Assembly: GCA_949291625.1 (NCBI GenBank)
Contig: CASEWY010000119.1
Coordinates: 1-38,344, forward strand
DNA length: 38,344 nt
From: an uncultured Bacillota bacterium
GTDB lineage: Bacteria > Bacillota_I > Bacilli_A > Erysipelotrichales > Erysipelotrichaceae
Direction: 5' to 3'
Below are positions 12,148-34,832 of this stretch, one piece after another; within the stretch, counting starts at the first letter, position 1; every line of letters starts with the position of its first letter. The translations under genes and the position numbers were made by a program. The notes beneath the pieces were generated by a model, which made no database searches, was not told the origin of the DNA, and worked only from the letters and a program-made list of their open reading frames with translations.

Positions 12148-13296
12148 CTATTTTAATAAAGATTTATATAATTCTTTGATTTCAGCTACACTAGTTTCAC
12201 GAGGATTACCAGGTCTACAAGCATCAGCATATGCACTTTCACTTAAGAAATCAAGATCTTCTTCTTTAACAATGCCTTTCAATGTTGTAGGAATACCTAC
12301 ATCACTAGATAATTGTTTAACTGCATCGATAGCAGCTTTACGATAAGTTTCTTGATCCATTCCAGTAGTATCAACACCCATTGCTTCAGCAATGTATTTA
12401 TATTTATCACCAGTTACACATGCATTATATTCCATAACCGTTGGTAAGATAATTGCATTAGCAATTCCATGAGGTGTATCATATAAAGCTCCTAAAGGAT
12501 GAGCCATTGAGTGAACAATACCTAAGCCTACATTTGAGAATCCCATACCAGCAATATATTGACCTAAAGCCATACCTTCACGTCCTTCAGGTGTATTTTC
12601 TACTGCACCACGTAAACTCTTAGAAATAATTTCAATAGCTTTCAAATGGAACATATCGCTCATTTCCCAAGCACCAGCTGTGATATAACCTTCAATTGCA
12701 TGAGTTAAAGCATCCATACCAGTTGCAGCAGTTAAACCTTTAGGCATTGTGCTCATCATATCAGGGTCTACGAAAGCAACACAAGGTATATCATGAGTAT
12801 CAACACAAACCATTTTTCTATTCTTTTGAGCATCAGTAATTACATAGTTAATTGTAACTTCAGCAGCTGTACCTGCAGTAGTTGGAACTGCAAAAATTGG
12901 TGTACATTTATTCTTAGTTGGAGCAACTCCTTCCAAACTACGAACATCAGCAAATTCAGGGTTTTTATCAATGATACCAACTGCTTTAGCAGTATCCATT
13001 GAACTACCACCACCAATAGCGATGATATAATCAGCATTTGCATCATGCAATGCTTTTACCCCTGCTTGTACATTTTCAATTGTTGGATTAGGTTTAATAT
13101 CAGAATATAATTCATATGCTAATCCAGCTTCATCTAATAAATCAGTTACTTTTTTAGTAACATTAAATTTAATTAGATCTGGGTCTGAACAAACTAAAGC
13201 TTTTTTAAATCCTCTTGCTTTAGCCTCAGTAACAATTTCTTTGATGGCATCTTTGCCATGGTAGCTTACTTCATTTAATACAAATCTATTAGCCAT
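12148..13296 (-). CDS. fucO: iron-containing alcohol dehydrogenase, lactaldehyde reductase / 1,2-propanediol oxidoreductase type
   Basis: 382 aa, near-collinear with E. coli FucO as I remember it (MANR..LNE, NPEFADVRSLEG, PTTAGTAAEVTINYVITD, DALTHAIEGYIT, GFSNVGLGIVHSMAHPLGA). Confidence 0.88.
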   Translation of the reverse strand: MANRFVLNEVSYHGKDAIKEIVTEAKARGFKKALVCSDPDLIKFNVTKKVTDLLDEAGLAYELYSDIKPNPTIENVQAGVKALHDANADYIIAIGGGSSMDTAKAVGIIDKNPEFADVRSLEGVAPTKNKCTPIFAVPTTAGTAAEVTINYVITDAQKNRKMVCVDTHDIPCVAFVDPDMMSTMPKGLTAATGMDALTHAIEGYITAGAWEMSDMFHLKAIEIISKSLRGAVENTPEGREGMALGQYIAGMGFSNVGLGIVHSMAHPLGALYDTPHGIANAIILPTVMEYNACVTGDKYKYIAEAMGVDTTGMDQETYRKAAIDAVKQLSSDVGIPTTLKGIVKEEDLDFLSESAYADACRPGNPRETSVAEIKELYKSLLK

Positions 13297-13434: not shown

Positions 13435-13986
13435 TTAATATAAAATTAGATTTGCTAATTGGGTAGGCATAGCTTTAATAAGATTTCTTGCAACCACTTT
13501 TTCACTAGGATATAAATCATTTTTAAGCCACTCTATAGTCATATAAATACAACCATAACAATATAAACGTAAAGCAAAATCTAAGTCTTCATTGATACTA
13601 TCTACTTTTAATTTACTTAATATTACATTTAAATAAAAATTATAAATACAATTAAAATCATAATTTATTAATGAATTACAATCTGCTATCAAAAAAGCTT
13701 GCCTAAAAAAGTTTTGTTCCTTACGAATATATTGAAACTTTTTAATTAAACCTTCTTCAAGTGTCAAACCATTACCCATTTTTTTAAATGATTTATCAGC
13801 TATTTTCTCAAAATACCAATTTACTAAATCAAATTTATCTTTAAAATATCGATAAAAGGTTTGTCTAGTCATACCACAATTATCTACAATATCTTTTACA
13901 GTAATTTTATTAATATGATAAGTATTCATTAACTCAATTAAGGAGTTAGCTAACCAATATTTGGTTTTGTCATTATTATCTATCAT
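13435..13986 (-). CDS. TetR/AcrR-family transcriptional regulator (DhaS-like subgroup)
   Basis: 183 aa with an N-terminal HTH, ITVKDIVDNCGMTRQTFYRYFKDKFDLVNWYF. The start overlaps the hydA stop (ATGA), so it is translationally coupled as the last gene of the hydrogenase operon. Confidence 0.85.
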   Translation of the reverse strand: MIDNNDKTKYWLANSLIELMNTYHINKITVKDIVDNCGMTRQTFYRYFKDKFDLVNWYFEKIADKSFKKMGNGLTLEEGLIKKFQYIRKEQNFFRQAFLIADCNSLINYDFNCIYNFYLNVILSKLKVDSINEDLDFALRLYCYGCIYMTIEWLKNDLYPSEKVVARNLIKAMPTQLANLILY

Positions 13987-15734
13987 TGGATTTTAAATTT
14001 TATCTTTTGTGAATATGTAGTATGTAACAATTTATGAGCTAGATGTGAGCCTGGTTTCTCAAGATAGTTTTCATATAAAGCCTGGATCTGCGTATTCTCA
14101 TGAGATTTTCTTACTTCGCAAAGCTTATCTTCATCATATAGAACTTTTGTTCTTAATGCTTTATAATCGACATCATTATTTTTAATTCTACTAGAAACAA
14201 TAGATTGACCACCACCGTTGATACAACCACCAGGACAACCCATAATTTCAATAAAATGATATGGACTGCAATGATTCTTTACATCTTCTAATAAAGGTTT
14301 AGCATTAGTCATTCCTGAAGCAATTGCTACTTTAACATCAATATCATTGATTTTAATTGTAGCATGTTTTACTCCTTGTAAACCTCTTACTTCTTCAAAG
14401 TCAATTTTAGCTAATTCTTTATGTTCTAATATCTCTTTAACTGTTCTTAAGGCAGCTTCCATAACTCCACCAGTTGCGCCAAAGATTACAGCTGCTCCAG
14501 AATATTCTCCAAACATATCATCATCAAATTCTTCATCTGGTAAATCTTTTAAATCAATGCCATACATCTTTAATAGACGTCCACATTCTCTAGTAGTTAG
14601 TACTGCATCTACATCTGGATATTCATTAGTTAAGCATTCATTACGCTTAATTTCAGATTTTTTTGCAGTACATGGCATAATAGAAACAACAAAAATATCT
14701 TTAGGATCTATACCTTTAACTTTTGCATAATATGATTTTAACATTGCTCCTAACATCATATGAGGAGATTTACAACTACTTAAATTATCTAAAATTTCAG
14801 GATATTCATATTCTGCATATCTAATCCATCCTGGACTACATGAAGTTATCATAGGTAATACACCATTATTTTGTAATCTTTCGATAAATTCCGTACCTTC
14901 TTCCATAATGGTTAAATCGGCTCCAAAATTGGTATCATATACTCTATTAAAACCAACTCGTCTTAATCCTGCTACCATTTTACCTGTTACTCTAGTACCA
15001 ATTGGCATATTGAATTCTTCGCCTAGCGATGCTCTAACAGCTGGTGCAGTTTGTACTATAACATGTTTAGTCTTATCATTTAAAGCTTGAACAACACGAT
15101 GTATATCTTCCTTTTCACTTAAGGCACCTACTGGACAATTAATAACACATTGACCACATTGCATGCAATTTACATCTGCAAAACTTTTGTCCATAACTGG
15201 AGCAACTTTAGTATTAAATCCTCGATTTTGAAAACCTAAAATACCTAATCCTTGAACTTTTTTACAAGTTTCAACGCATCTACCACATAAAATACATTTA
15301 CTAGAATCTCTTACGATACCATAGCTAAAATCATCAAAGCTAACTGGTGTATGTTCACCATTAAATTTATCTTCTCTAATACCTAATTCTTCCGTTAAGC
15401 GTTGTAATTCACAATTTTGATTTCTAACGCAACTCAAACAATTTTTAGAATGATTAGATAAAATCAATTCAACACTATTTTTTCTTGCTTGAATAGCCCT
15501 ATTACTATGAGTATATACTTCTAAGCCTTCAGAAACAGGATAAACACAAGCTGCTGCTAAATTTTTAGCATTTTTAACTTCTACTAAACAAACGCGACAA
15601 TTTCCACTTTTATTTACATCTTTTAGATAACATAAAGTTGGAATATTAATGCCAGCTTTTTTTGCAGCAGTTAAGATTGTATCATTTTCATCACAACGAA
15701 CATTTATATTATTAATTTTAATATTTACGCTCAT
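13983..15734 (-). CDS. hydA: [FeFe] hydrogenase catalytic subunit HydA (multimeric NAD/ferredoxin-linked, group A3-like)
   Basis: 583 aa. It has an N-terminal plant-type [2Fe-2S] (CYLKDVNKSGNCRVCLVEV), FeS domains CILCGRCVETC and CMQCGQCVINCP, and H-cluster motifs L1 TSCSPGW (variant), L2 MPCTAKKSE and L3 EIMGCPGGCINGGGQ. Confidence 0.95.
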   Translation of the reverse strand: MSVNIKINNINVRCDENDTILTAAKKAGINIPTLCYLKDVNKSGNCRVCLVEVKNAKNLAAACVYPVSEGLEVYTHSNRAIQARKNSVELILSNHSKNCLSCVRNQNCELQRLTEELGIREDKFNGEHTPVSFDDFSYGIVRDSSKCILCGRCVETCKKVQGLGILGFQNRGFNTKVAPVMDKSFADVNCMQCGQCVINCPVGALSEKEDIHRVVQALNDKTKHVIVQTAPAVRASLGEEFNMPIGTRVTGKMVAGLRRVGFNRVYDTNFGADLTIMEEGTEFIERLQNNGVLPMITSCSPGWIRYAEYEYPEILDNLSSCKSPHMMLGAMLKSYYAKVKGIDPKDIFVVSIMPCTAKKSEIKRNECLTNEYPDVDAVLTTRECGRLLKMYGIDLKDLPDEEFDDDMFGEYSGAAVIFGATGGVMEAALRTVKEILEHKELAKIDFEEVRGLQGVKHATIKINDIDVKVAIASGMTNAKPLLEDVKNHCSPYHFIEIMGCPGGCINGGGQSIVSSRIKNNDVDYKALRTKVLYDEDKLCEVRKSHENTQIQALYENYLEKPGSHLAHKLLHTTYSQKIKFKIQ

Positions 15735-15736
15735 GT

Positions 15737-17533
15737 TTATCTCCTTTCAATCGCATGGAAACGACAAGCACTATAACAAGCACCACATTTTATACATTTA
15801 CTAGTATCGATATGATATGGTTCTTTACCTGGCACACCACTGATTGCCCCAACTGGACAATTCTTAGCACATAATGAACATTTACGGCACAAATCACTTT
15901 TAACTTGATAAGTTAATAGAGCTTTACAAACTCCAGCTGGACAACGTTTGTCTACAACATGAGCTTCATATTCTGCTCTAAATTGCTTTAAAGTAGAAAG
16001 GATTGGATTTGGTGCTGTTTGACCTAAGCCACATAATGCAGTTTGCTTAATCTCATAACAAAGTTTTTCCATCTCATCTAAGATTTCTAAACCACCCTCA
16101 CCTTTAGTAATTTTAATTAACATTTCTAATAAGCGTTTAGTACCAACACGACATGGTGTACATTTTCCGCAACTTTCTTCAACGATAAAATCTAGATAAA
16201 ACCGTGCTACGTCAACCATACAATTATCTTCATCTAAGACAATCATACCACCAGAACCCATCATGCTTCCTAGTTCAACTAAGTTATCAAAATCTATTGG
16301 AGTATCTAATTGATCTTCCGTTAAGCATCCACCACTAGGTCCCCCAGTTTGAACTGCTTTAAAGTTCTTATTATTTGGACAACCACCACCTATTTCATAA
16401 ATAATTTCTCTTAGTGTTGTACCCATAGGAATTTCAACTAATCCCGTATTAGTAATCTTTCCTCCTAAAGCAAATACTTTAGTACCTTTAGATTTTTCTG
16501 TACCAATACTAGCAAACCAACTAGCACCATTTAAAATTATTTGTGCTACATTTGCAAATGTTTCAACATTATTAATGATTGTAGGTTTACCCCAAACTCC
16601 ACTTACTGCAGGGAAAGGTGGTTTAGGAACAGGCATTCCTCTTTTACCTTCAATAGACATAATCAAAGCTGTTTCTTCTCCACATACAAAGGCACCAGCT
16701 CCTAAACGAATTTCAAGAGTAAAATCAAAATCTGTACCTAAAATATTCTTGCCTAATAAACCATATTCTTCAGCTTGCTTAATAGCAATTTTTAAACGTT
16801 GTACAGCAATTGGATATTCAGCACGAATATATATATAACCATGATTTGCTCCAATAGCATAACCTGCAATTGCCATTGCCTCAATAACACTATGCGGATC
16901 ACCTTCTAATATTGAACGATCCATAAATGCTCCAGGATCTCCTTCATCAGCATTACAAATAACATACTTTTGACCTTTTGGTTGATTAGCCGCAAATTGC
17001 CATTTAACTCCTGTAGGGAAGCCTCCACCTCCTCTACCTCTTAAACCAGAAGCTTTTATTTCATCGATTACTTCCTGTGGGGTCATTTCTGTAATAGCTT
17101 TTCCTAATGCCATATATCCATCTTTAGCAATATATTCTAAAATATCTTCTGGATTTATAACTCCACAATTTCTTAAAGCAATTCTTTTTTGTTTTGCATA
17201 GAATTTAATTTTATCAATATCTAATATTTTTTCTTTAGTTTCTTCATCAATTTCACTTAATTCTAAGCGTTTAACTACTCTACCTTTATATAGATGTTCC
17301 GAAATAATAACTTCTACATCTTCTACTTTTACATGATTATAAAAAACTTTATCTGGATATATTGCGACGATAGGACCTTTTTGACATAATCCAAAACATC
17401 CCGTTTTAATAACCTTAACTTCTTCCTCTAAGCCATATTGAGGGAGTAGCTCATTAAATTTTTGTACAAGTAAACCCGAGTTACTACTAGTACACCCTGT
17501 ACCGGCGCAAATTAAAACATTTATTCTTTCCAT
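15737..17533 (-). CDS. hydB: NuoF-like NAD(P)H/FMN subunit HydB of bifurcating-type hydrogenase
   Basis: 598 aa. It has an N-terminal thioredoxin-like [2Fe-2S] (CAGTGC...CFGLCQKGP), an FMN/NADH site GLRGRGGGGFPTGVKW, a [4Fe-4S] ESCGKCTPCR, and a C-terminal 2x[4Fe-4S] (CRKCSLCAKNCP, CIKCGACYSAC). Confidence 0.95.
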   Translation of the reverse strand: MERINVLICAGTGCTSSNSGLLVQKFNELLPQYGLEEEVKVIKTGCFGLCQKGPIVAIYPDKVFYNHVKVEDVEVIISEHLYKGRVVKRLELSEIDEETKEKILDIDKIKFYAKQKRIALRNCGVINPEDILEYIAKDGYMALGKAITEMTPQEVIDEIKASGLRGRGGGGFPTGVKWQFAANQPKGQKYVICNADEGDPGAFMDRSILEGDPHSVIEAMAIAGYAIGANHGYIYIRAEYPIAVQRLKIAIKQAEEYGLLGKNILGTDFDFTLEIRLGAGAFVCGEETALIMSIEGKRGMPVPKPPFPAVSGVWGKPTIINNVETFANVAQIILNGASWFASIGTEKSKGTKVFALGGKITNTGLVEIPMGTTLREIIYEIGGGCPNNKNFKAVQTGGPSGGCLTEDQLDTPIDFDNLVELGSMMGSGGMIVLDEDNCMVDVARFYLDFIVEESCGKCTPCRVGTKRLLEMLIKITKGEGGLEILDEMEKLCYEIKQTALCGLGQTAPNPILSTLKQFRAEYEAHVVDKRCPAGVCKALLTYQVKSDLCRKCSLCAKNCPVGAISGVPGKEPYHIDTSKCIKCGACYSACRFHAIERR

Positions 17534-17544
17534 AAGTTAATCTC

Positions 17545-17913
17545 CTACTTTTGATAATTATCAATTGTCAATTCCGTCAATATGCGATCTTTTAAAATAT
17601 GATTTTGTAAAATGGAAATAGCTTTTTCTGGAGTAACATGAACATAAGTAGTTTTAGTATGATCTTCTTGATTAAATACTTCAACAATTGGTTCATATGC
17701 ACATAAGCCTATACATCCTGTTTGGGTAACTATGCAAGGATATTCATTTCTACTTATTTCTTCGATAAGAGTATTTAATACTGGTCTAGCACCTGCTGCA
17801 ATCCCACAGGTAGCCATACCTACTACTACCCTATATTTTTTGTTTACATCGCGCATTTCAACTTTTTTTAATGCTTTTTCACGCATCTTTTTTAAATCTT
17901 CTAAACTTTTCAT
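17545..17913 (-). CDS. thioredoxin-like [2Fe-2S] ferredoxin
   Basis: 122 aa with Cys pairs in MATCGIAAGA and TGCIGLCAYEP. The start overlaps the stop of the upstream GHKL ATPase gene (ATGA). Confidence 0.85.
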   Translation of the reverse strand: MKSLEDLKKMREKALKKVEMRDVNKKYRVVVGMATCGIAAGARPVLNTLIEEISRNEYPCIVTQTGCIGLCAYEPIVEVFNQEDHTKTTYVHVTPEKAISILQNHILKDRILTELTIDNYQK

Positions 17914-18464
17914 TGATTCTCTCCTTTTATTCCTTGATTAATATAATCTTTGATCCATAATAATATATCTGGTTCATAAATTTTAACTTCATCAAGTATT
18001 TTTTTAATTTCTTTAGTTTCAAATAGAAAATTAATTTTATCTTTTTTATAATATAGTACAAAGTCTATATCAGGATTAGCTTGTATACATAACATCATCA
18101 TTTCACCAATATTACCTAAAGGAGGAATATCCCAATGTGAATATGGTAAAGTTGCAATGGTTATAGTACCAATATTAGGTCTACTTTTTATAATCAATTT
18201 ACCATTACATTGATCACATAGACTTTGTAAAAAAGATACACCTAAACCAATTTTTCTAGTCTTTCTAGTAGTTACAAAAGGATTGGTAATATTATTAAGA
18301 AACTCTTGTTCCATACCCTTTCCATCATCTTCTACTATTATTGTTAAAAGATCTTCACTAGTATCTATTTCTATATTACAAATGATATTATTACTACATG
18401 CATGAATACTATTCATCAGTATTTCAATAATATACATAGCTAAATCTTCCATATTTACTCCCAT
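17910..18464 (-). CDS. stand-alone GHKL (histidine-kinase-like) ATPase domain protein
   Basis: 184 aa with an N-box-like EILMNSIHA, a G1-like VEDDGKGM and a G2-like KIGLGVSF. It has no HisKA/DHp domain, sensor domain or TM segment. The real start may be the MEDLAMY Met 12 nt downstream. Confidence 0.8.
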   Translation of the reverse strand: MGVNMEDLAMYIIEILMNSIHACSNNIICNIEIDTSEDLLTIIVEDDGKGMEQEFLNNITNPFVTTRKTRKIGLGVSFLQSLCDQCNGKLIIKSRPNIGTITIATLPYSHWDIPPLGNIGEMMMLCIQANPDIDFVLYYKKDKINFLFETKEIKKILDEVKIYEPDILLWIKDYINQGIKGENQ

Positions 18465-19138
18465 AGCTTATGAAAAATATCTTCATCTAAAGCATTTGTT
18501 TTTTCACTTATATCAACCAAATGATGGGCATCTGAATTAATCATAAAAACTTTATTTTGTAAAAAAGGATACATTTTTTTAATTAATTGAATTTGTTCTT
18601 CACTTTTTACTTCAATAGCATCCGCTTCGATATTTTTAGGGATGAATCCCAATTGATTTATAATACTATTTTTTCGATCTAATACATGGGCTAAAACGAC
18701 AATACCATGATATTTATGTATTTGACTAATACACTCATTTAAACTAATTTGGGTACTAGTAATTAATAAATAAGGATGATTATTTATAACATTATCTTGT
18801 TCATCCATAATTAATTGATTACCAAAATAATGAATATCATTTTTAGTTTTAAGCTTATAAGTATCCAACCATCTATCAAAAGCCATATTATCTTCTAACT
18901 TTTTAAATAATCCTAAAATATGGACTTCTTCCATTGTTTCTACTTCAATTCCATATATTATCTTAATAGTAGTATCTAATTTACTAAATGCTGGTAATTG
19001 TAAGGAAGAGTTATGATCACAAATAGCTATCATATCTAATCCTTTTATCATTGCCATATTGACAATATTATTTGGCGTCATATCATCATCGGCACATGGT
19101 GATAAACATGAATGAATATGAAAATCATAATAAATCAT
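18455..19138 (-). CDS. PHP-domain metal-dependent phosphoesterase
   Basis: 227 aa with YYDFHIHSCLSPCADDD (HxH), AICDHNS and SDAHH motifs typical of the PHP fold. There is an ATGA overlap with the upstream DRTGG gene. Confidence 0.85.
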   Translation of the reverse strand: MIYYDFHIHSCLSPCADDDMTPNNIVNMAMIKGLDMIAICDHNSSLQLPAFSKLDTTIKIIYGIEVETMEEVHILGLFKKLEDNMAFDRWLDTYKLKTKNDIHYFGNQLIMDEQDNVINNHPYLLITSTQISLNECISQIHKYHGIVVLAHVLDRKNSIINQLGFIPKNIEADAIEVKSEEQIQLIKKMYPFLQNKVFMINSDAHHLVDISEKTNALDEDIFHKLWE

Positions 19139-19464
19139 ATCTTTAAACGTACTAATTCTTTAGCGCAGTCATATGCACTATATGATGTTAAAATTAAATT
19201 AACTTGTTCCTCTTTACACTTATTTATAAATTCTTCATCACATGTTGCATTATCGCATAATATGATGCAACTAAATTCTTTCAACAAGCTTACAGCAACT
19301 ACATTTAAATGCGATTGAACTGTAATCCATATTTGATTTTCTTTTCCATTTGCCATAACCCAACTAAGTAAATCACCAATGAATACGCCACTAATTTCCA
19401 TATCTTCATTAGCAATATTAACAAAATTGAATTGTGATATATTCTTTAAATCTTTAATTTTCAT
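19135..19464 (-). CDS. DRTGG-domain protein (paralogue 2)
   Basis: 109 aa. It aligns by eye with the 121-aa paralogue at 21028..21393 (DLLSWV../DLMSDA.., central beta-strand-T-x-x-x-N pattern, C-terminal T/S..Y..D). The family call is from pattern memory. Confidence 0.65.
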   Translation of the reverse strand: MKIKDLKNISQFNFVNIANEDMEISGVFIGDLLSWVMANGKENQIWITVQSHLNVVAVSLLKEFSCIILCDNATCDEEFINKCKEEQVNLILTSYSAYDCAKELVRLKI

Positions 19465-20620
19465 TTTCTTTTTCCTTTGTTTTTAGTATTTGACAATCAT
19501 TCAAAGTTTTATGACCATTAACAATTTCTTCTGCCATAATACGACATGTTGGTAAACCACAAGCCGTACAATCATAACCTGGTAATTTTTCTAATTGTAA
19601 ATTTACAGCATTAAAATATTTAATCTTTTCTTTGATTGATCTTTGATCTACATCTATATCTTCATCATTATCTTTTATAAAATAATGTTCATCAATTGAC
19701 ATTATTTCATTAGTAGAAGCAATTTTATCAATATTTTTTATTGCTGTATAGGCATTACCCCACATCAAATGACCTCCGATACAGCCTCCATAACAAGGAT
19801 ATAATCTAATTAAATTATATTCTTCCAATAATCCAAATTCGGCTAATTCTAATATATTTAATATACTATCAAAGCCATCAGTAACTAAAATATTAGGATT
19901 TTTTTCAATAGTAAATGGTGATGTAACCATTAAACCTTTTTGACTTAATTTAATATCTTCCTTATTATCCACCATCAAAGATTTAATCTTTGGAAAAATA
20001 TCTACAATACTTAAAGCGTGATCAACTTCATATTTAAGATTTTGATAAGGATATTTTGCCAATGCTAATTTAGCAGCACATTCACATAAATTAAATATTC
20101 CAATTTGTTCATTTTTGTGTTTATCTCTTATAATTTTTGCCATAATTTCACTAGGATAATTTATTGGCAAAACTTTATCTTCAAGTACCGGAAATTTGAT
20201 TTTAATTAAATTGTTTACCAAAGGACAAAATGAACTAATATGCATTTGATTACTAGGAAAATTTTTTGCCTTTTCAAATACCGCTGCTTCAACAGGACTT
20301 AAATCAATTATTTCATCAAAGCCTAATTTTTTTAAAGCATTAAATAATTCATTTACCTTTTGTTTTGACTCTAAATGACAAGATAAGGCACTAGGGACAA
20401 GACAAACAGTATATTTATAACTATTAATATCATCTAAAGTACTACCTTGAGCAGTCATACCTTTATGATGACAGGCATTAATACATTTAAAACAATTTAT
20501 GCAATTTTTTTTATCTATTACAATACGATTATTTTGCATGCGAATTGCTTTAGTCGGACAAGCTTGGACACAACGCATACATTTAGAACACTTACTTAAG
20601 GTATAAGTAATAACGCTCAT
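19454..20620 (-). CDS. HydS-like [FeFe]-hydrogenase-domain FeS protein (putative sensor, no PAS domain)
   Basis: 388 aa. It has 2 ferredoxin motifs (CSKCMRCVQACP, CINCFKCINACH), degenerate H-cluster motifs SSFCP / LCECAAK / PCYGGCIGG, and a C-terminal CTACGLPTC-x16-C. Confidence 0.75.
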   Translation of the reverse strand: MSVITYTLSKCSKCMRCVQACPTKAIRMQNNRIVIDKKNCINCFKCINACHHKGMTAQGSTLDDINSYKYTVCLVPSALSCHLESKQKVNELFNALKKLGFDEIIDLSPVEAAVFEKAKNFPSNQMHISSFCPLVNNLIKIKFPVLEDKVLPINYPSEIMAKIIRDKHKNEQIGIFNLCECAAKLALAKYPYQNLKYEVDHALSIVDIFPKIKSLMVDNKEDIKLSQKGLMVTSPFTIEKNPNILVTDGFDSILNILELAEFGLLEEYNLIRLYPCYGGCIGGHLMWGNAYTAIKNIDKIASTNEIMSIDEHYFIKDNDEDIDVDQRSIKEKIKYFNAVNLQLEKLPGYDCTACGLPTCRIMAEEIVNGHKTLNDCQILKTKEKENEN

Positions 20621-20624
20621 ATTA

Positions 20625-21038
20625 TTACCCTTTAAATGAAATGGTCAAAATAGTTCCTTCAGGACTAGTTTTAATATCAAAGGTATCAGATACCCTTTTA
20701 ATATTAACTAAGCCCATGCCAGCTCCAAAACCTAGATTCCTAGCCTTTTCATTTGCTGTAGACCATCCAGGCGTCATAGCTTTGGTTAAATCAGGAATTC
20801 CTGGTCCTAAATCATGAAATATCAAGGTAATTAAGCCATCATCATCAACATCCATATGAATATTACCTCCATAGGCATGAATAACCATATTAATTTCTGC
20901 TTCATAACTAGCTACAGCAATTCTCCTTAAAATTTTAGGATCAAAACCAATTTCTAGAAGCATCTTTTTAATCTGACTACTAACTTTACCCATATTTTGA
21001 TAATCTTGATTGACCACTTCAAAATCCTTACTTAGCAT
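20625..21038 (-). CDS. RsbW/SpoIIAB-like anti-sigma-type Ser/Thr kinase (GHKL ATPase)
   Basis: 137 aa with SYEAEINMVIHA (N-box), HDLGPGIPD (G1) and GFGAGMGLVNIKR (G2). It is the single-domain architecture of partner-switching kinases. Confidence 0.85.
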   Translation of the reverse strand: MLSKDFEVVNQDYQNMGKVSSQIKKMLLEIGFDPKILRRIAVASYEAEINMVIHAYGGNIHMDVDDDGLITLIFHDLGPGIPDLTKAMTPGWSTANEKARNLGFGAGMGLVNIKRVSDTFDIKTSPEGTILTISFKG

Positions 21039-21393
21039 TTATACCTTTTAAACCTTGAGAATATAAGATTCCGCAAGCATCAAATAATGTATAATGCGTC
21101 GTATATACATTGCATCTTAAGTCTTTAGCCATTTCTAAAGTATCACTGTCCAACATTTTGCCTCTTACATAAATAATTAGATCAAGATCTAACATTTCTG
21201 CAGTCCTTAAAGATTGTGCATTACAACAACCAGTTAATAATACTGTTGAATTATCTTCATTAGATATCATAGCTAAAGCATCACTCATTAAATCGGAAGC
21301 AAAACAATTATTATATTCTTTATCTAATAATTGTGGTGTACCTATAATAATAGGTTTAGCATCTAAATAATTAATGATATCTTTAGCAAGCAC
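21028..21393 (-). CDS. DRTGG-domain protein (paralogue 1)
   Basis: 121 aa with a GTG start 2 nt after the hydC stop, preceded by GAAAGAAGG. It has a VLLTGCCNAQSLRTAEM core and is a paralogue of 19135..19464. Confidence 0.65.
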   Translation of the reverse strand: MLAKDIINYLDAKPIIIGTPQLLDKEYNNCFASDLMSDALAMISNEDNSTVLLTGCCNAQSLRTAEMLDLDLIIYVRGKMLDSDTLEMAKDLRCNVYTTHYTLFDACGILYSQGLKGINAK

Positions 21394-21395
21394 TA

Positions 21396-21887
21396 TTAAT
21401 GCCTTCTTTCAGCCTGAATAATCTTAGTTATGATATCCTCCACTACATTAGATTCATTCGCATTTCCATATACCTTGTCATCAATAATAACAACCGGAGC
21501 TAAACCACAAGCTCCAAGACATCTTGTAGCATCCAACGAGAACAAGCCATCATCACTTGTACCATTAATTGGTGCATGGGTAAGGTCCATGATGTGATTG
21601 ATCAACTCTTGCGCTCCTTTAACATAGCATGCGGTACCCATGCATACATTAATAACACACTTTCCTTTAGGTTCTGTCGTAAATTGCGTATAAAAAGTAA
21701 CTACCCCATAAACTTCTGCCACACTAACATTACAAGCTTCAGCTATTTTTTCCATCGCTTCAAAAGGAATATAGCCTAGCTCACCTTGAACAACATGCAA
21801 CATAAGCTTAACAGGACCCATTTTGTCTTTATGCCTCAAGACAATTTCATCAATCTTACGCCGCGACTCGATATTTAATTTTTCCAT
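21396..21887 (-). CDS. hydC: NuoE-like [2Fe-2S] subunit HydC of bifurcating-type hydrogenase
   Basis: 163 aa with the NuoE cysteine pattern CMGTACYVKG ... CLGACGLAP. Its RBS GGAGG is formed by the last codons (AGG AGG TAA) of the upstream permease gene. Confidence 0.92.
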   Translation of the reverse strand: MEKLNIESRRKIDEIVLRHKDKMGPVKLMLHVVQGELGYIPFEAMEKIAEACNVSVAEVYGVVTFYTQFTTEPKGKCVINVCMGTACYVKGAQELINHIMDLTHAPINGTSDDGLFSLDATRCLGACGLAPVVIIDDKVYGNANESNVVEDIITKIIQAERRH

Positions 21888-21893
21888 TTTTAC

Positions 21894-22637
21894 TTACCTC
21901 CTCTTCTCATAAAAATGAATTAAATTATTAAATATTATGTCAATTAATAAGCAAATGATAATAATAATTATCGTATAAGCAAATATATCTGTCATATTTA
22001 AATTTAATTTAGCTATTTGTAACAATCGTCCTATGCCCTTAGGAGCTTGCCCTAAGATTTCTGCCATAACTCCAACTTTAAAACCCAAAGAAAATGAAGT
22101 CTTTAGATTATTTAAAACTAGTGGCAATAAGTATGGAAGCAAATGATATCTTAAACTATCAAAAAAGTTTTCATGATATATTAGTTCCACATCTTTATAT
22201 TGCTTACTAATATTATCTAAAGCATATAATATATTGGAATAAATCATTGGAAATAATATCAAAAAACAAATAATACTAACACTTTTTGTAGAACCAAACC
22301 ATATAAGAATAATGATTATATAACTGATATTAGGTATCGTTTTAATTATCATATTCAATGGTTCAAAAAAATAACGAAGGCTTTTAAATTCATAGCCAGC
22401 AATTCCTAAAATTAAAGCAATTAATAAGCTAAATAAACAAGCATATAAAACATGTAATAAAGTTGCGAATAAAGATTTATAAAATGATAAATCAAACAAA
22501 ATTAATATAACTTGTTTTAAAGTAATAAATGGATAAGGAATTAATACATCATTATGCACAATATTAGCTAATATATACCAAAATCCTATAATTAACATTA
22601 TTGTTATAATGTATTCTTTTTTTACATGCTTTTTCAT
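21894..22637 (-). CDS. ABC transporter permease, NitT/TauT-like family
   Basis: 247 aa and multi-TM. It has LIWFGSTKSVSII and VMAEILGQAPKGIG segments typical of the SsuC/TauC-type permease loop. There is no SD, and the ATG lies 6 nt after a TATAAT. Confidence 0.8.
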   Translation of the reverse strand: MKKHVKKEYIITIMLIIGFWYILANIVHNDVLIPYPFITLKQVILILFDLSFYKSLFATLLHVLYACLFSLLIALILGIAGYEFKSLRYFFEPLNMIIKTIPNISYIIIILIWFGSTKSVSIICFLILFPMIYSNILYALDNISKQYKDVELIYHENFFDSLRYHLLPYLLPLVLNNLKTSFSLGFKVGVMAEILGQAPKGIGRLLQIAKLNLNMTDIFAYTIIIIIICLLIDIIFNNLIHFYEKRR

Positions 22638-22643
22638 ATGTAA

Positions 22644-22672
22644 ATTATACTATATAACCGCTTACATTTCTA
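22644..22672 (-). promoter_or_regulatory. putative promoter of permease/hyd operon (TAGAAA-17-TATAAT) with a cre-like site in the spacer
   Basis: The minus strand reads TAGAAATGTAAGCGGTTATATAGTATAATTTACATATG. TGTAAGCGGTTATA (22653..22666) matches the cre consensus TGWAANCGNTNWCA except C13->T. Confidence 0.4.
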
Positions 22673-22680
22673 TAAAAGCT

Positions 22681-22709
22681 TAAAAAAACCTAGTTTTTTT
22701 AAAACTAGG
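22681..22709 (-). terminator. Rho-independent terminator after the SBP gene
   Basis: The minus strand reads CCTAGTTTT-AAA-AAAACTAGG followed by TTTTTTT. It lies 9 nt after the SBP stop and upstream of the permease promoter. Confidence 0.75.
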
Positions 22710-22717
22710 TCAAAAAG

Positions 22718-23668
22718 TTATTTAATTAAAGCTTTTTCAATATCACTAATTCCAAATAAATTTAAGAAATTAGTTAATTCATCTTTTGCATCATTTGCAT
22801 TAACAACATTTAGATTTAAACGATTCCAAGTTGTACTAGCGATATTTCCATTTGGTACACCTAAGACATCAGCACCAACACTATCTACAACATCAACAAC
22901 AATACTACTATCCTGGTTAGCTTTATCTACAAATGATTTAATTTCATTTATAAATGTATCAATTCTATCTTTATTTTCATTGTAGCTTTCCTCTAGAACA
23001 AAGATACCTGCTTGAGGATATTTACCACCATATTTTTCTTCCCATAATTGTTGTAGATCACTCAAAATTTGTAATTCTACACCATTTTCTTTAGCTTTAG
23101 CAATTGTAGCTGTTGCTGCAGGTTCAGCTAACAAAGCAATATCAGCATTATCGCTTAATAAAGCTGCTTGAGCTTCAGCAACACTTGGATAATAAGTTTT
23201 ATTCATAGCTAAATCACTAAACAAATCTTCAAAAACTAAACCAACAACAGCATTTTCACCAAATAAAGCAATATCTTGGGCAGTTTCCATACCATTTTCA
23301 CTACCAACTAAATATAAATTACCCCAAGTTAAAACATCTAGTAATTTATAAGATGTCTTATCATTAGCGGCTAAATTAACACCTAAATTGGTTGGTGCAA
23401 TTATAATATCATATTCAGGTGAAGGATTAACTAATGAAGCTTGTAATACTTCACTGCCATCAACAGTAACTACATTATGAGTGCCTTCACTAATGATATT
23501 TGCTAAAGGTAAGGCAGTTGCTCCTTTAGGGGCTAAAACATTTAATGGTTCATAGCTTTCAGTAGTAGCACTAGGAGTTATGGTTTCTTCTATTGTTTCA
23601 TTTGTATTTTGTGAACAACCACTTAAAATAAGTAAACTTAATAATAATATCAATATTTTTTTCATCAT
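22718..23668 (-). CDS. ABC transporter substrate-binding lipoprotein (NitT/TauT/NMT1-like), substrate unknown
   Basis: 316 aa with a signal peptide and lipobox MMKKILILLLSLLILSGC, and an LLAEPAATA segment like SsuA/ThiY-type binding proteins. Its ATG overlaps the thrS TGA (ATGATGA), with AGAGG 9 nt upstream. Confidence 0.75.
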   Translation of the reverse strand: MMKKILILLLSLLILSGCSQNTNETIEETITPSATTESYEPLNVLAPKGATALPLANIISEGTHNVVTVDGSEVLQASLVNPSPEYDIIIAPTNLGVNLAANDKTSYKLLDVLTWGNLYLVGSENGMETAQDIALFGENAVVGLVFEDLFSDLAMNKTYYPSVAEAQAALLSDNADIALLAEPAATATIAKAKENGVELQILSDLQQLWEEKYGGKYPQAGIFVLEESYNENKDRIDTFINEIKSFVDKANQDSSIVVDVVDSVGADVLGVPNGNIASTTWNRLNLNVVNANDAKDELTNFLNLFGISDIEKALIK

Positions 23669-25428: not shown

Positions 25429-25645
25429 AAAAAAACGCCCTTAACAAAGGACGTAATTAACGCGGTACCACCTTACTTCCATCGTAAAAATACGATGACT
25501 CTTTTGATATTTAACGCATATCTTTACGGCATTCTATTAAGAAGCTGCTCCAAGGTAGTAATTAATAAGTTAACATCTAATCTTGCACCATCCGATTAGC
25601 TCTCTATATGTGATCACTTATTAACCGTGTCCTTTTCATCACATT
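25429..25645 (-). promoter_or_regulatory. T-box leader (Thr specifier) with terminator/antiterminator, controlling thrS
   Basis: The minus strand has an AGAGAG box and a specifier region AATT-ACU-A-CCUUGGAG (ACT at 25557..25559, followed by ACC). The T-box is AAGGTGGTACCGCG (25461..25472). The terminator ACGTCCTT-TGTT-AAGGGCGT plus T7 (25429..25454) directly abuts the ATG. Confidence 0.88.
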
Positions 25646-25651
25646 AACTAT

Positions 25652-34579: not shown

Positions 34580-34826
34580 TGTCTATATCCTTTCTAAAAA
34601 AAAGAAATTCATCCAAAGGACGAATTTCTCGTGGTACCACCTTAATTTACATAAAATATAAAATTTTATGCCTTTAAATCGTTAACGCCGATTAAACGAT
34701 CAAAACTACTAATATTTCACTTTGATAACTCCAAGACTACCTTCTTCTTACATTAATATCGTTTTTTCACCGACCAACGACTCTCTAATAATTAAGCGGT
34801 AAGAATACTCCTTCTTTTCAACGTTT
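34580..34826 (-). promoter_or_regulatory. T-box leader (Val specifier GUA) with terminator, controlling valS
   Basis: The minus strand has an AGAGAG box and a specifier region GAAG-GUA-G-UCUUGGAG (GTA at 34738..34740), the same register as the thrS leader. The T-box is AAGGTGGTACCACG (34630..34641). The terminator is AGAAATTCGTCC-TTT-GGATGAATTTCT plus T8 (34595..34629). Confidence 0.88.
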
Positions 34827-34832
34827 GTTTGT

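What the first reader, a model, noticed from the sequence alone, without database searches (positions are those of the whole stretch)
17910..21393. Uncharacterised six-gene sensory / partner-switch-like module embedded inside the hydC...hydB-hydA hydrogenase operon
Six genes lie between hydC (NuoE-like) and the ferredoxin-hydB-hydA genes, joined by 4-11 nt overlaps or gaps of <=4 nt. They are a DRTGG protein (21028-21393), an RsbW/SpoIIAB-like GHKL Ser/Thr kinase (20625-21038) and a HydS-like FeS protein (19454-20620). These are followed by a second DRTGG protein (19135-19464), a PHP phosphoesterase (18455-19138) and a second stand-alone GHKL ATPase (17910-18464). The usual partners of RsbW-type kinases are all absent: no STAS antagonist, PP2C phosphatase, sigma factor, receiver or DNA-binding domain. 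Twice a small single-domain DRTGG protein precedes a GHKL ATPase, and one phosphoesterase and one FeS sensor accompany them. This mimics partner-switching logic, with DRTGG in the place of STAS and PHP in the place of PP2C. My inference is that this is an H2- or redox-responsive post-translational control device acting on the HydABC complex itself rather than on transcription. From memory, similar genes neighbour hydABC in some Clostridia/Thermoanaerobacterales, but I know of no biochemical characterisation.
Basis: partly seen in the sequence, partly recalled or inferred. Interest (0 to 1): 0.72.

Follow-up and report, generated by a model that had tools for sequence, protein, structure and literature searches.

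The report
Hydrogen-sensor signalling genes inside hydrogenase operon
The six genes are real and form the widespread but biochemically unexplained "group D sensory hydrogenase plus kinase" cassette that sits beside NADH-linked hydrogenases; this copy is an ordinary new member, and comparison across genomes points to the sensor's likely protein partners.

Summary
All six ORFs exist exactly as described, tightly packed between hydC and ferredoxin-hydB-hydA. This is not a new kind of locus. ORF3 is a group D (M2e / HydDB C1) putative H2-sensing [FeFe]-hydrogenase like TamHydS. Its pairing with a "histidine/serine kinase" upstream of bifurcating hydrogenases has been reported since 2010-2013, and no signalling mechanism is known.

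What I add:
- The unit is a five-gene cassette (DRTGG-like D1, SpoIIAB-type kinase K, HydS, DRTGG D2, PHP). The sixth gene, A6, is a TTE0891-type ATPase with only a histidine-kinase catalytic domain, and it travels with fdx-hydB.
- The order is colinear in 79 of 80 Erysipelotrichaceae genomes. The cassette recurs in about 80 metagenome loci and in WOR-3 and Thermodesulfobacteriota, sometimes without hydA.
- Kinase and PHP catalytic residues are invariant, as is one Ser in a DxxS motif in both DRTGG proteins.
- Natural HydS-D2, D1-HydS and K-HydS fusions point to a HydS-centred complex.

The partner-switch reading is plausible but unproven. Whether the output is post-translational or transcriptional is unresolved. 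I file it as a new member of a known kind, of moderate interest.

The parts
21396..21887 (-). hydC (NuoE-like thioredoxin-type 2Fe-2S subunit); first hydrogenase gene of the block
   Evidence: PF01257 at 2.4e-43. It precedes D1 in Erysipelotrichaceae, WOR-3 and Thermodesulfobacteriota loci.
21028..21393 (-). D1: DRTGG-like single-domain protein, paralogue of D2, with invariant D34-x-x-S37
   Evidence: No Pfam hit. HHalign to the D2 family gives 98.4%, E 1e-14. The family profile hits PDB 2ioj and 3l2b. D34 and S37 are 100% conserved in 89 sequences.
20625..21038 (-). K: SpoIIAB/RsbW-type GHKL Ser/Thr kinase-like protein
   Evidence: HATPase_c_2 at 3.8e-12. TIGR01925 scores 43.9 bits, below its cut-off of 135. 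PDB SpoIIAB matches at about 2e-4. E46, N50, D76xGxG80 and G103-G109 are invariant in 94 sequences. It is adjacent to HydS in 67/68 loci.
19454..20620 (-). HydS: group D (M2e / HydDB C1) putative H2-sensing [FeFe]-hydrogenase
   Evidence: Two Fer4 motifs, Fe_hyd_lg_C and PF04060. The H-cluster Cys residues C132, C181, C276 and C280 are invariant, as is the C-terminal C351x2C354x4C359x16C376 motif. F131 stands in place of the proton-relay Cys.
19135..19464 (-). D2: DRTGG single-domain protein with invariant D31-x-x-S34, W46 and N54; fused to the C-terminus of HydS in other lineages
   Evidence: PF07085 at 1.1e-5. HydS-D2 fusions appear. The AF2 model of a fusion has pLDDT 92 and pTM 0.81.
18455..19138 (-). 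PHP-family metal-dependent phosphoesterase with a complete metal site
   Evidence: PF02811 at 2.2e-7. H7, H9, C15, D41, H42, E65, E70, H73, H151, D203 and H205 are 100% conserved in 77 sequences. Its nearest relatives are RNase AM/TrpH and the TrlF N-terminal domain.
17910..18464 (-). A6: stand-alone histidine-kinase catalytic (CA) domain ATPase with an uncharacterised ~75-aa C-terminal domain; TTE0891/Cthe_0339-type
   Evidence: HATPase_c at 8.9e-14. The family profile matches the KinB CA domain (3d36) at 1.3e-17 over residues 5-105 only. It has no HisKA/DHp domain. N18, D46xGxG50, G73xG75, D112 and G117 are invariant. It is always followed by fdx-hydB.
17545..17913 (-). HydD-like thioredoxin-type 2Fe-2S ferredoxin
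   Evidence: PF01257 is weak at 2.5e-4. NF041612 scores 6.5e-7. The A6-fdx-hydB order is conserved.
15737..17533 (-). hydB (NuoF-like FMN/NADH subunit)
   Evidence: Complex1_51K at 6.5e-49 and NADH_4Fe-4S at 3.6e-32.
13983..15734 (-). hydA, catalytic [FeFe]-hydrogenase of the NADH-dependent/bifurcating type
   Evidence: NF040763 scores 875.8 bits against a cut-off of 765. Fe_hyd_lg_C scores 1e-96.
13435..13986 (-). TetR-family regulator gene overlapping the hydA stop by 4 nt; present only in the closest relatives
   Evidence: TetR_N and TetR_C_8. It is found only in L001, L002 and L004.
21894..22637 (-). ABC-transporter permease gene 6 nt upstream of hydC; possibly the first gene of the transcription unit
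   Evidence: BPD_transp_1 at 8.7e-18. A terminator-like site (22711-22687) and a promoter-like site (22672-22644) lie just upstream. Permease-hydC synteny occurs in many loci.

Best explanation
The region is a copy of the group D (M2e, HydDB C1) putative hydrogen-sensor cassette. It is built into an operon for an NADH-linked, probably electron-bifurcating, [FeFe]-hydrogenase.

Shown:
- HydS has every H-cluster and accessory-cluster ligand of the characterised sensor-type enzyme TamHydS, and it lacks the proton-relay cysteine.
- It is flanked by a SpoIIAB-type kinase (K), two paralogous DRTGG proteins (D1, D2) and a PHP phosphoesterase, all with intact active-site or signature residues.
- A sixth protein (A6) is a histidine-kinase catalytic domain without a phospho-acceptor domain. 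It always travels with the small ferredoxin and the NuoF-like subunit.

Inferred:
- HydS, K, D1 and D2 form one signalling complex.
- H2 binding at the H-cluster changes HydS conformation and thereby the kinase's access to, or activity on, the invariant serine of D2 and/or D1.
- The PHP enzyme resets the switch.
- The phosphorylation state is read out on the NuoE/ferredoxin/NuoF module, possibly through A6, or on a regulator encoded elsewhere. The effect would be to tune H2 production to the H2 partial pressure.
For: Identity of HydS:
- The Cys ligands and the Cx2Cx4Cx16C motif are invariant. This is the architecture described for TamHydS (PMC8163306; PMC13104023).
- None of 439 homologues has Cys at the CpI-C299 position.

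Conservation of the set:
- 79 of 80 Erysipelotrichaceae loci are colinear, and 72 carry all six genes.
- In 80 unrelated metagenome loci, K is adjacent in 67/68, D1 in 58/64, D2 in 61/69 and PHP in 45/61.
- The same nine-gene order NuoE-D1-K-S-D2-PHP-A6-fdx-NuoF occurs in WOR-3 and Thermodesulfobacteriota.

Catalytic competence and candidate acceptor:
- GHKL motifs in K and A6 and the PHP metal ligands are invariant. D-x-x-S is invariant in both D1 and D2.
- This motif is absent from the generic DRTGG protein 2ioj.
- In a high-confidence model of a fusion protein the Ser lies at a strand-to-helix junction.

Physical linkage:
- Among the 149 newly retrieved cluster representatives scanned (of the 150 listed), there are 7 HydS-D2, 2 D1-HydS and 1 K-HydS fusions.
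- About 27 further HydS-D2 fusion proteins were found, some on Mb-sized contigs.
- The fusion model has pLDDT 92 and pTM 0.81, with an ordered linker.

Physiological context: NADH-dependent hydrogenase activity responds to H2 pressure in Caldanaerobacter, as cited in PMC3561251.
Against: - No phosphorylation, binding or H2 response of any of these proteins has been measured, here or in the literature searched.
- Some loci have only K-HydS, without D1, D2 or PHP (L086, L092, L101, L112). Eight loci have D1-K-S-D2 without PHP. So the DRTGG proteins and the PHP are not obligatory partners of the kinase.
- The PHP is closest to nucleotide and RNA phosphoesterases, not protein phosphatases.
- In TamHydS the C-terminal cluster is not reduced by H2, which removed the earlier signalling model.
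- Nine of 26 fully flanked loci have no hydB within 10 kb.
- The invariant Ser at a helix N-terminus could equally bind a phosphate-bearing ligand.
- I could not inspect inter-domain contacts or the predicted aligned error of the fusion model.
Confidence: 0.5

Rival explanations
1. This is a classical transcriptional control device. K is an anti-sigma or anti-regulator kinase that holds a sigma factor or transcription factor encoded elsewhere. HydS, D1 and D2 modulate that hold in response to H2, and the output is the transcription of hyd and fermentation genes.
For: K is SpoIIAB-like. K-HydS pairs lie directly downstream of a GAF/PAS histidine kinase plus OmpR-type regulator in L086 and L092. 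TamHydS is flanked by an AraC regulator. Rex lies upstream in Koleobacter. A TetR gene ends the window's operon. The literature assumes transcriptional regulation.
Against: No DNA-binding or sigma gene is conserved with the cassette across about 160 loci. The regulators seen differ from locus to locus. TetR is present only in the three closest relatives. K falls well below the SpoIIAB equivalog cut-off.
Confidence: 0.3
2. HydS is a working catalytic partner of the NuoE/NuoF module rather than a pure sensor. In lineages without hydA it would be the only hydrogenase subunit. The ATPases, DRTGG proteins and PHP would serve in assembly, gating or protection of that complex.
For: The nine-gene block NuoE-D1-K-S-D2-PHP-A6-fdx-NuoF occurs without any H-domain hydA nearby in WOR-3 and Thermodesulfobacteriota. 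TamHydS does catalyse H2 turnover at low rates. A metabolic role has been suggested for Cloacimonadota.
Against: All homologues lack the proton-relay Cys. The characterised member is slow and has an overpotential. In Firmicutes a full HydA is present, and the purified Caldanaerobacter enzyme is described as HydA-D only. hydA may lie elsewhere in those genomes, which I did not test.
Confidence: 0.12
3. The cassette signals through a nucleotide rather than through protein phosphorylation. The DRTGG proteins would bind a nucleotide or phosphorylated small molecule at the DxxS site, the GHKL proteins would make or consume it, and the RNase AM-like PHP would degrade it.
For: The PHP's nearest relatives are nucleotide and RNA phosphoesterases: RNase AM, pAp phosphatase and the TrlF N-terminal domain. 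DRTGG domains occur in nucleotide-regulated CBS-pyrophosphatases. Koleobacter K carries CBS domains. The invariant Ser sits at a helix N-terminus, a common phosphate-binding position.
Against: GHKL proteins of the SpoIIAB and histidine-kinase CA types are protein kinases. No cyclase or synthetase domain is present. No ligand is known for stand-alone DRTGG domains.
Confidence: 0.08

Closest known systems
TamHydS, the group D (M2e) putative sensory [FeFe]-hydrogenase of Thermoanaerobacter mathranii, and the equivalent loci TTE0887, Cthe_0335, Csac_1857 and Teth39_1463
   Same: The domain plan is the same: two N-terminal 4Fe-4S clusters, an H-domain with four Cys ligands, no proton-relay Cys, a C-terminal Cx2Cx4Cx16C cluster and no PAS domain. 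It likewise sits next to a kinase-like ATPase and a bifurcating group A hydrogenase.
   Different: The window protein is shorter (388 aa against about 420-450). It belongs to a separate Erysipelotrichaceae clade: more than 390 bits within the clade against under 310 bits for the rest. Here the cassette lies after hydC rather than before it. The literature mentions only the kinase and not the two DRTGG proteins or the PHP.
Group C (M2f) sensory hydrogenases HydS/HfsB with a PAS domain, linked to PP2C phosphatase and Ser/Thr kinase (Thermotoga, Ruminococcus albus, Thermoanaerobacterium hfs)
   Same: Both are sensor-type H-domains with a C-terminal 4Fe-4S motif, encoded beside H2-evolving hydrogenases and beside kinase and phosphatase genes (the R. 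albus gene set is from my own knowledge).
   Different: Group C carries a fused PAS domain after the C-terminal cluster. In group D that position is taken by the DRTGG protein D2, which is separate here and fused in Thermodesulfobacteriota. A PHP stands where PP2C would be.
SpoIIAB-SpoIIAA-SpoIIE and RsbW-RsbV-RsbU partner-switching modules
   Same: Both have a small GHKL Ser kinase with conserved N, G1 and G2 boxes. Both have a small alpha/beta partner protein with one invariant Ser at a strand-to-helix junction. Both have a metal-dependent phosphoesterase encoded alongside, with translationally coupled genes.
   Different: There is no STAS fold, no PP2C and no sigma factor. K scores 43.9 bits against the 135-bit SpoIIAB cut-off. 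Phosphorylation is untested.
Regulatory [NiFe]-hydrogenase HoxBC with histidine kinase HoxJ and regulator HoxA (Cupriavidus, Rhodobacter)
   Same: The concept is the same: a low-activity hydrogenase acts as an H2 sensor bound to a kinase that controls hydrogenase expression. This comparison rests on my own knowledge, with HoxJ mentioned.
   Different: The metal site is different ([NiFe]). HoxJ is a complete PAS histidine kinase with a response regulator. Here there is no DHp domain and no receiver.
TTE0891 / Cthe_0339 'histidine kinase-like ATPase' genes inside hydC-x-hydD-hydB-hydA operons
   Same: A6 is the same family and has the same right-hand neighbours, fdx-hydB.
   Different: In those operons hydC lies directly upstream of it. 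In the window the PHP gene does. Its function is unknown in both cases.

Membership tests
Group D (M2e / HydDB C1) putative sensory [FeFe]-hydrogenase | Two N-terminal [4Fe-4S] binding motifs | tested here: met
   C11, C14, C17, C21 and C40, C43, C46, C50 are invariant. Fer4 families match.
Group D (M2e / HydDB C1) putative sensory [FeFe]-hydrogenase | H-domain with the four H-cluster cysteine ligands | tested here: met
   Fe_hyd_lg_C scores 5e-16. C132, C181, C276 and C280 are invariant and K184 is nearly so.
Group D (M2e / HydDB C1) putative sensory [FeFe]-hydrogenase | The proton-relay cysteine of group A enzymes (CpI C299) is absent | tested here: met
   The window has SSF-C132-P. None of 439 homologues has Cys at that position. 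The feature is described in PMC8163306.
Group D (M2e / HydDB C1) putative sensory [FeFe]-hydrogenase | C-terminal Cx2Cx4Cx16C cluster motif and no PAS domain | tested here: met
   C351x2C354x4C359x16C376 is invariant. PF04060 scores 5.5e-12 and there is no PAS hit.
Group D (M2e / HydDB C1) putative sensory [FeFe]-hydrogenase | Encoded next to a kinase-like ATPase and a multimeric group A hydrogenase | tested here: met
Group D (M2e / HydDB C1) putative sensory [FeFe]-hydrogenase | Binds an H-cluster and responds to H2 | not testable with these tools
   This needs expression, maturation and spectroscopy.
SpoIIAB/RsbW anti-sigma serine kinases | HATPase_c_2 fold with catalytic Glu/Asn and G1 and G2 boxes | tested here: met
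   PF13581 scores 3.8e-12. E46, N50, D76xGxG80 and G103-G109 are 100% conserved.
SpoIIAB/RsbW anti-sigma serine kinases | Reaches the curated family score (TIGR01925) | tested here: not met
   It scores 43.9 bits against a cut-off of 135.
SpoIIAB/RsbW anti-sigma serine kinases | A STAS antagonist and a target sigma factor encoded alongside | tested here: not met
   Neither is present in the window module or in 8 Pfam-annotated contexts. Genes elsewhere in the genome were not testable.
Partner-switching module (kinase, phosphorylatable antagonist, phosphatase) | A small partner protein carrying a conserved phospho-acceptor Ser | tested here: inconclusive
   D1 S37 and D2 S34 are invariant in about 90 sequences each, and the Ser lies at a strand-to-helix junction. 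Phosphorylation itself was not tested, and the fold is DRTGG, not STAS.
Partner-switching module (kinase, phosphorylatable antagonist, phosphatase) | A dedicated PP2C-type phospho-Ser phosphatase | tested here: not met
   There is no PP2C. A PHP enzyme with an intact metal site stands in its place. Its relatives are nucleotide phosphoesterases.
Two-component sensor histidine kinase (for ORF6/A6) | Catalytic ATP-binding (CA) domain | tested here: met
   HATPase_c scores 8.9e-14. The KinB CA domain matches at 1.3e-17.
Two-component sensor histidine kinase (for ORF6/A6) | A DHp/HisKA domain with phospho-acceptor His, and a cognate receiver | tested here: not met
   There is no HisKA hit. Residues 110-184 match nothing. 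No receiver is present in the locus.
DRTGG domain proteins | Match to the DRTGG profile or fold | tested here: met
   D2 scores 25.6 bits on PF07085 against a cut-off of 25.2. D1 has no Pfam hit, but HHalign to D2 gives 98.4% and its profile hits 2ioj and 3l2b.
PHP phosphoesterases | His/Asp/Glu metal-binding motifs | tested here: met
   H7, H9, H42, E65, H73, H151, D203 and H205 are 100% conserved.
NADH-dependent / electron-bifurcating HydABC [FeFe]-hydrogenase | HydA of the NADH-dependent group plus NuoF-like and NuoE-like subunits in one operon | tested here: met
   NF040763 scores 875.8 bits, above its cut-off of 765. NuoF and NuoE profiles also match. Bifurcation itself is not testable here.

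The most novel reading that the evidence does not exclude
D1, D2, K and PHP would form a previously undescribed type of serine phospho-switch. DRTGG domains would be the phospho-acceptors and a PHP enzyme the eraser. The switch would be physically assembled on an H2-sensing hydrogenase. It would control, after translation, the NuoE/ferredoxin/NuoF flavin module of bifurcating enzymes (hydrogenase, and possibly formate dehydrogenase-type partners) in at least three bacterial phyla.
Probability: 0.22. Interest if true: 0.8.

Novelty: new member of a known kind. Interest (0 to 1): 0.45.

Why it matters
Electron-bifurcating hydrogenases set the H2 balance of fermenters in guts, rumens and digesters. 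How cells sense H2 and throttle these enzymes is unknown. The only characterised group D sensor, TamHydS, has no known partner. Its most recent study (PMC13104023) states that finding the interaction partners is the critical next step.

The comparative data here name specific candidates. The adjacent SpoIIAB-type kinase and two DRTGG proteins are sometimes fused to HydS, and each DRTGG protein has an invariant serine to mutate. The data also show that the constant genomic companions are NuoE, the small ferredoxin and NuoF rather than HydA. That makes the open question directly testable, although the locus itself is not a surprise to specialists.

Tried and rejected
1. Pfam and NCBIfam on ORF1 alone gave nothing. 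Its identity was resolved only by profile-profile comparison and a PDB profile search.
2. The single genome-contig scan returned only Erysipelotrichaceae. The cross-phylum view had to come from the representative search, the metagenome scan and contig look-ups.
3. I first thought that placing the cassette between hydC and hydB was specific to Erysipelotrichaceae. I rejected this after finding the same order in WOR-3 and Thermodesulfobacteriota.
4. An apparent A6-ferredoxin fusion in L118 has a junk-like basic linker. I judge it a frameshift artefact and do not use it as evidence.
5. AlphaFold on A6 without an alignment failed (pLDDT 35), so the C-terminal domain of A6 remains unassigned.
6. 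The PDB sequence search with the PHP gave only a weak RNase AM hit. No group D hydrogenase structure exists.
7. Literature searches found no relevant paper. The searches covered DRTGG with hydrogenase, PHP domain with kinase-like ATPase and hydrogenase, partner-switching with FeFe hydrogenase, and the locus tags Cthe_0335, Athe_1292, Csac_1857, TTE0887, Teth39_1463 and Cthe_0334.
8. I could not obtain coordinates or predicted aligned error for the HydS-D2 model. The docking of D2 is inferred only from pTM and linker pLDDT.

Full report
**1. Observation**

The ORF table shows an unbroken string of minus-strand genes. In order they are:
- an ABC permease (21894-22637)
- hydC/NuoE (21396-21887)
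- ORF1/D1 (21028-21393)
- ORF2/K (20625-21038)
- ORF3/HydS (19454-20620)
- ORF4/D2 (19135-19464)
- ORF5/PHP (18455-19138)
- ORF6/A6 (17910-18464)
- a small 2Fe-2S ferredoxin (17545-17913)
- hydB/NuoF (15737-17533)
- hydA (13983-15734)
- a TetR gene (13435-13986)

Every junction from the permease to TetR is either an overlap of 4-11 nt or a gap of 2-11 nt. ORF1 has no hit by itself. However, the ORF1 and ORF4 families align over their full length by HHalign (probability 98.4%, E 1e-14). An ORF1-family profile also finds the DRTGG proteins AF_1212 (2ioj) and the CBS-pyrophosphatase DRTGG domain (3l2b, 3l31).

**2. What ORF3 is**

An alignment of 31 relatives and of 80 genome copies shows the following as invariant:
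- eight Cys of two N-terminal 4Fe-4S clusters
- the four H-cluster ligands (C132, C181, C276, C280)
- a C-terminal C-x2-C-x4-C-x16-C motif lying in a PF04060 domain

The residue before C132 is Phe, not the proton-relay Cys of catalytic enzymes. No PAS domain is present.

This is exactly the published description of the M2e / group D enzyme TamHydS (PMC8163306; PMC13104023). The family is large. A profile search found 308 clusters (50% identity) at E<=1e-30 and 2100 at E<=1e-10. More than 7800 clusters (90% identity) score E<=1e-20. The window's protein belongs to a compact Erysipelotrichaceae clade. The closest genome locus, L001, is an uncultured Erysipelotrichaceae MAG at 94% identity.

**3. 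What is already known**

- Carere et al. 2012 (PMC3561251) list group D M2e hydrogenases (Cthe_0335, TTE0887, Csac_1857, Teth39_1463). [quoted passage not shown]
- Verbeke et al. 2013 (PMC3608648) say the same for all Thermoanaerobacter.
- Land et al. 2020 note the flanking histidine kinase-like ATPase.
- HydDB calls the group C1, 'histidine kinase-linked'.
- TTE0891, the A6 homologue between hydC and hydD, was carried along as a 'hypothetical protein' in a synthetic operon (PMC4694547).

In the searchable literature I found no relevant paper that names the DRTGG proteins or the PHP in this context. I also found no genetics on these loci and no partner-switch proposal. [quoted passage not shown] It also says that identifying interaction partners is critical.

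**4. Census**

In 80 Erysipelotrichaceae genome loci (HydS identity 40-94%), the order hydC-D1-K-HydS-D2-PHP-A6-fdx-hydB-hydA is colinear in 79. Of these, 57 are complete and 72 carry all six module genes. The single deviation has an extra hydA upstream.

I then scanned metagenomes with a profile of distant, Clostridia-type group D proteins. This gave 80 further loci, which I annotated with HMMs built from the first set. Counting only loci with enough flank:

| Feature relative to HydS | Loci |
|---|---|
| K directly upstream | 67 of 68 |
| D1 upstream | 58 of 64 |
| D2 downstream | 61 of 69 |
| PHP downstream | 45 of 61 |
| hydB within 10 kb (8 kb flank on both sides) | 17 of 26 |
| A6 within 10 kb (8 kb flank on both sides) | 18 of 26 |

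The commonest order is D1-K-S-D2-PHP-hydC-A6-fdx-hydB-hydA. Variants include:
- divergent transcription of the two halves
- PHP-A6-fdx-hydC-hydB-hydA
- the window's hydC-first order (L098, L148, L156)
- stand-alone cassettes (for example Acetivibrio saccincola)
- D1-K-S-D2 without PHP
- bare K-S pairs next to a GAF/PAS histidine kinase and an OmpR-type regulator (L086, L092)

A6 is always followed by fdx-hydB. The pattern 'a DRTGG protein precedes a GHKL ATPase twice' is a consequence of this particular gene order.

**5. Beyond Firmicutes**

Contig look-ups show the window's exact order, NuoE-D1-K-S-D2-PHP-A6-fdx-NuoF, in three further settings:
- a complete WOR-3 genome (L166)
- Thermodesulfobacteriota (L167)
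- Desulfarculus-like MAGs (L165, L168)

None of these has an H-domain hydA within 9 kb. In L166 the NuoF is fused to a GltD-like domain. In L164 the cassette lies between a molybdopterin (formate dehydrogenase-like) gene set and A6-fdx-NuoF. The constant companions are NuoE, the small ferredoxin and NuoF, not HydA. I did not test whether hydA lies elsewhere in those genomes.

**6. Residue conservation**

I built combined alignments of both sets, with 60-94 sequences per family.
- **K:** the catalytic Glu/Asn (E46, N50), the G1 box (D76xGxG80) and the G2 box (G103-G109) are at 100%.
- **A6:** N18, D46xGxG50, G73xG75, plus D112 and G117 in the unassigned C-terminal part, are at 100%. The PDB profile search matches only residues 5-105, to histidine-kinase CA domains (KinB 1.3e-17). 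There is no DHp domain.
- **PHP:** all metal ligands (H7, H9, H42, E65, H73, H151, D203, H205), plus C15, D41 and E70, are at 100%. Its nearest relatives are RNase AM/TrpH, pAp phosphatase and the TrlF N-terminal domain, not CpsB-type protein phosphatases.
- **D1 and D2:** both keep a D-x-x-S motif at 100% (D34/S37 in D1; D31/S34 in D2). The generic DRTGG protein 2ioj lacks it.

**7. Natural fusions**

Among the 149 newly retrieved cluster representatives scanned (of the 150 listed), seven are HydS-D2 fusions, two are D1-HydS and one is K-HydS. In each case the extra domain is classified by my own HMMs as the paralogue expected from gene order. A search with one HydS-D2 fusion (P0241) returned about 27 further proteins of 511-569 aa covering at least 93% of it. 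They come from Thermodesulfobacteriota, Desulfarculus and related MAGs, including Mb-sized contigs, so the fusion is real.

AlphaFold2 with 64 sequences models it at mean pLDDT 92.1 and pTM 0.81. The linker blocks score 81-83 and the D2 blocks mostly 90-98, falling to 76 at the extreme C-terminus. This is compatible with a fixed docking of D2 on HydS. I could not inspect contacts or predicted aligned error. In the model the invariant Ser (S461) is in the first turn of a helix that follows a beta-strand. The same local geometry holds the phospho-serine of STAS antagonists (my own knowledge), but it is also a common phosphate-ligand site. D2 occupies the position that the PAS domain has in group C sensors, after the C-terminal cluster.

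An apparent A6-fdx fusion in L118 is probably a frameshift and is discarded.

**8. Mechanism**

The best-supported reading is an H2-responsive signalling complex centred on HydS.
- Shown: the sensor-type hydrogenase; an intact Ser-kinase-type ATPase; two DRTGG paralogues with one invariant Ser each; an intact PHP hydrolase; strong synteny; domain fusions of K, D1 and D2 with HydS.
- Inferred: K phosphorylates D2 and/or D1 on that Ser, depending on the state of HydS; the PHP reverses this; the state is read out on the NuoE/fdx/NuoF module (perhaps through A6) or on a regulator elsewhere.

The evidence does not separate post-translational from transcriptional output. The existence of K-S pairs without D1, D2 or PHP means the DRTGG proteins cannot be the kinase's only possible targets. 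Three rivals remain open and are listed with tests: a transcriptional anti-sigma-like device, HydS as a working subunit of NuoEF complexes, and nucleotide-based signalling.

**9. Comparison and novelty**

ORF3 meets every sequence-level criterion of group D/M2e.
- K resembles SpoIIAB and RsbW but fails the curated cut-off (43.9 against 135 bits) and lacks STAS and sigma neighbours. It works like, but is not, a member of that family.
- A6 is a histidine-kinase CA domain without DHp or receiver, so it is not a two-component kinase.
- The locus type is known, and the window is a new member in Erysipelotrichaceae.
- The mechanism is an acknowledged open question, and the partner candidates derived here make it testable.
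- A specialist would not be surprised by the locus. The DRTGG/PHP phospho-switch, if real, would be a new variant of partner switching.

**10. Surroundings**

T-box leaders precede the ThrRS and ValRS genes. ThrRS overlaps a lipoprotein-like solute-binding gene. A terminator-like hairpin and a promoter-like site separate that gene from the permease-hydC string. No tRNA genes are present.

Noticed in passing
window 21894-22637 (permease), 22718-23668 (binding-protein-like lipoprotein), 22687-22711 and 22644-22672: An ABC permease gene ends 6 nt before hydC, with a Shine-Dalgarno sequence inside its 3' end. A terminator-like hairpin and a promoter-like site lie between the upstream solute-binding gene and the permease. 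No ATPase gene is adjacent. The order ThrRS-SBP-permease-hydC recurs in many Erysipelotrichaceae loci, so the hydrogenase operon may start with a transporter gene.
   Followed up: partly
window 13435-13986 and 12148-13296: A TetR-family gene overlaps the hydA stop codon by 4 nt and is followed by an iron-containing alcohol dehydrogenase gene. This tail occurs only in the three closest relatives (L001, L002, L004). It may be a lineage-specific link between hydrogenase and alcohol production.
   Followed up: partly
window 25444-25648 and 34613-34830 (minus strand): Two T-box leaders (136 and 99 bits) lie upstream of the ValRS and ThrRS genes. The ThrRS gene overlaps the start of the solute-binding gene by 4 nt.
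   Followed up: no
L165 9001-10650, L168 9001-10650, L164 9001-10614; proteins P0241, P0390-P0396, P0410-P0427: HydS with a C-terminally fused DRTGG (D2-type) domain is a widespread architecture in Thermodesulfobacteriota, Desulfarculus and related MAGs. D1-HydS (P0161, P0223) and K-HydS (P0198) fusions also exist.
   Followed up: yes
L166 7682-16197 (WOR-3, CP070686); L167 7707-14288; L164 2449-14145: The block NuoE-D1-K-HydS-D2-PHP-A6-fdx-NuoF occurs without a catalytic hydA nearby. In L166 the NuoF is fused to a GltD-like domain. In L164 the block adjoins a molybdopterin (formate dehydrogenase-like) gene set. The sensor cassette may serve NuoEF-type complexes other than hydrogenase, or HydS may be the only hydrogenase there.
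   Followed up: partly
L086 59-4788; L092 4819-11320: Minimal kinase-HydS pairs without DRTGG or PHP genes lie directly downstream of a GAF/PAS histidine kinase and an OmpR-type response regulator, with a Sir2 gene between them in L092.
   Followed up: partly
L082 8133-8984 and 17010-19380 (Koleobacter methoxysyntrophicus CP059066): The kinase here carries N-terminal CBS domains, and an IS element interrupts the region upstream. Directly after hydA lies a group C-type HydS fused to PAS and a sigma-54 activator domain. One locus therefore holds both sensor types.
   Followed up: no
L118 4319-5242: An apparent A6-ferredoxin fusion ORF (307 aa) has a basic, low-complexity junction. It most likely reflects a frameshift in the assembly rather than a true fusion.
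   Followed up: yes
window 17545-17913 and homologues: The small ferredoxin has an N-terminal helix-like extension. Its residues L7 and R21 are invariant, K2 and R11 are in at least 92% of sequences and H105 is in 98%, all outside the cluster-binding cysteines. The role of this extension, next to the DHp-less kinase domain A6, is unexplained.
   Followed up: no
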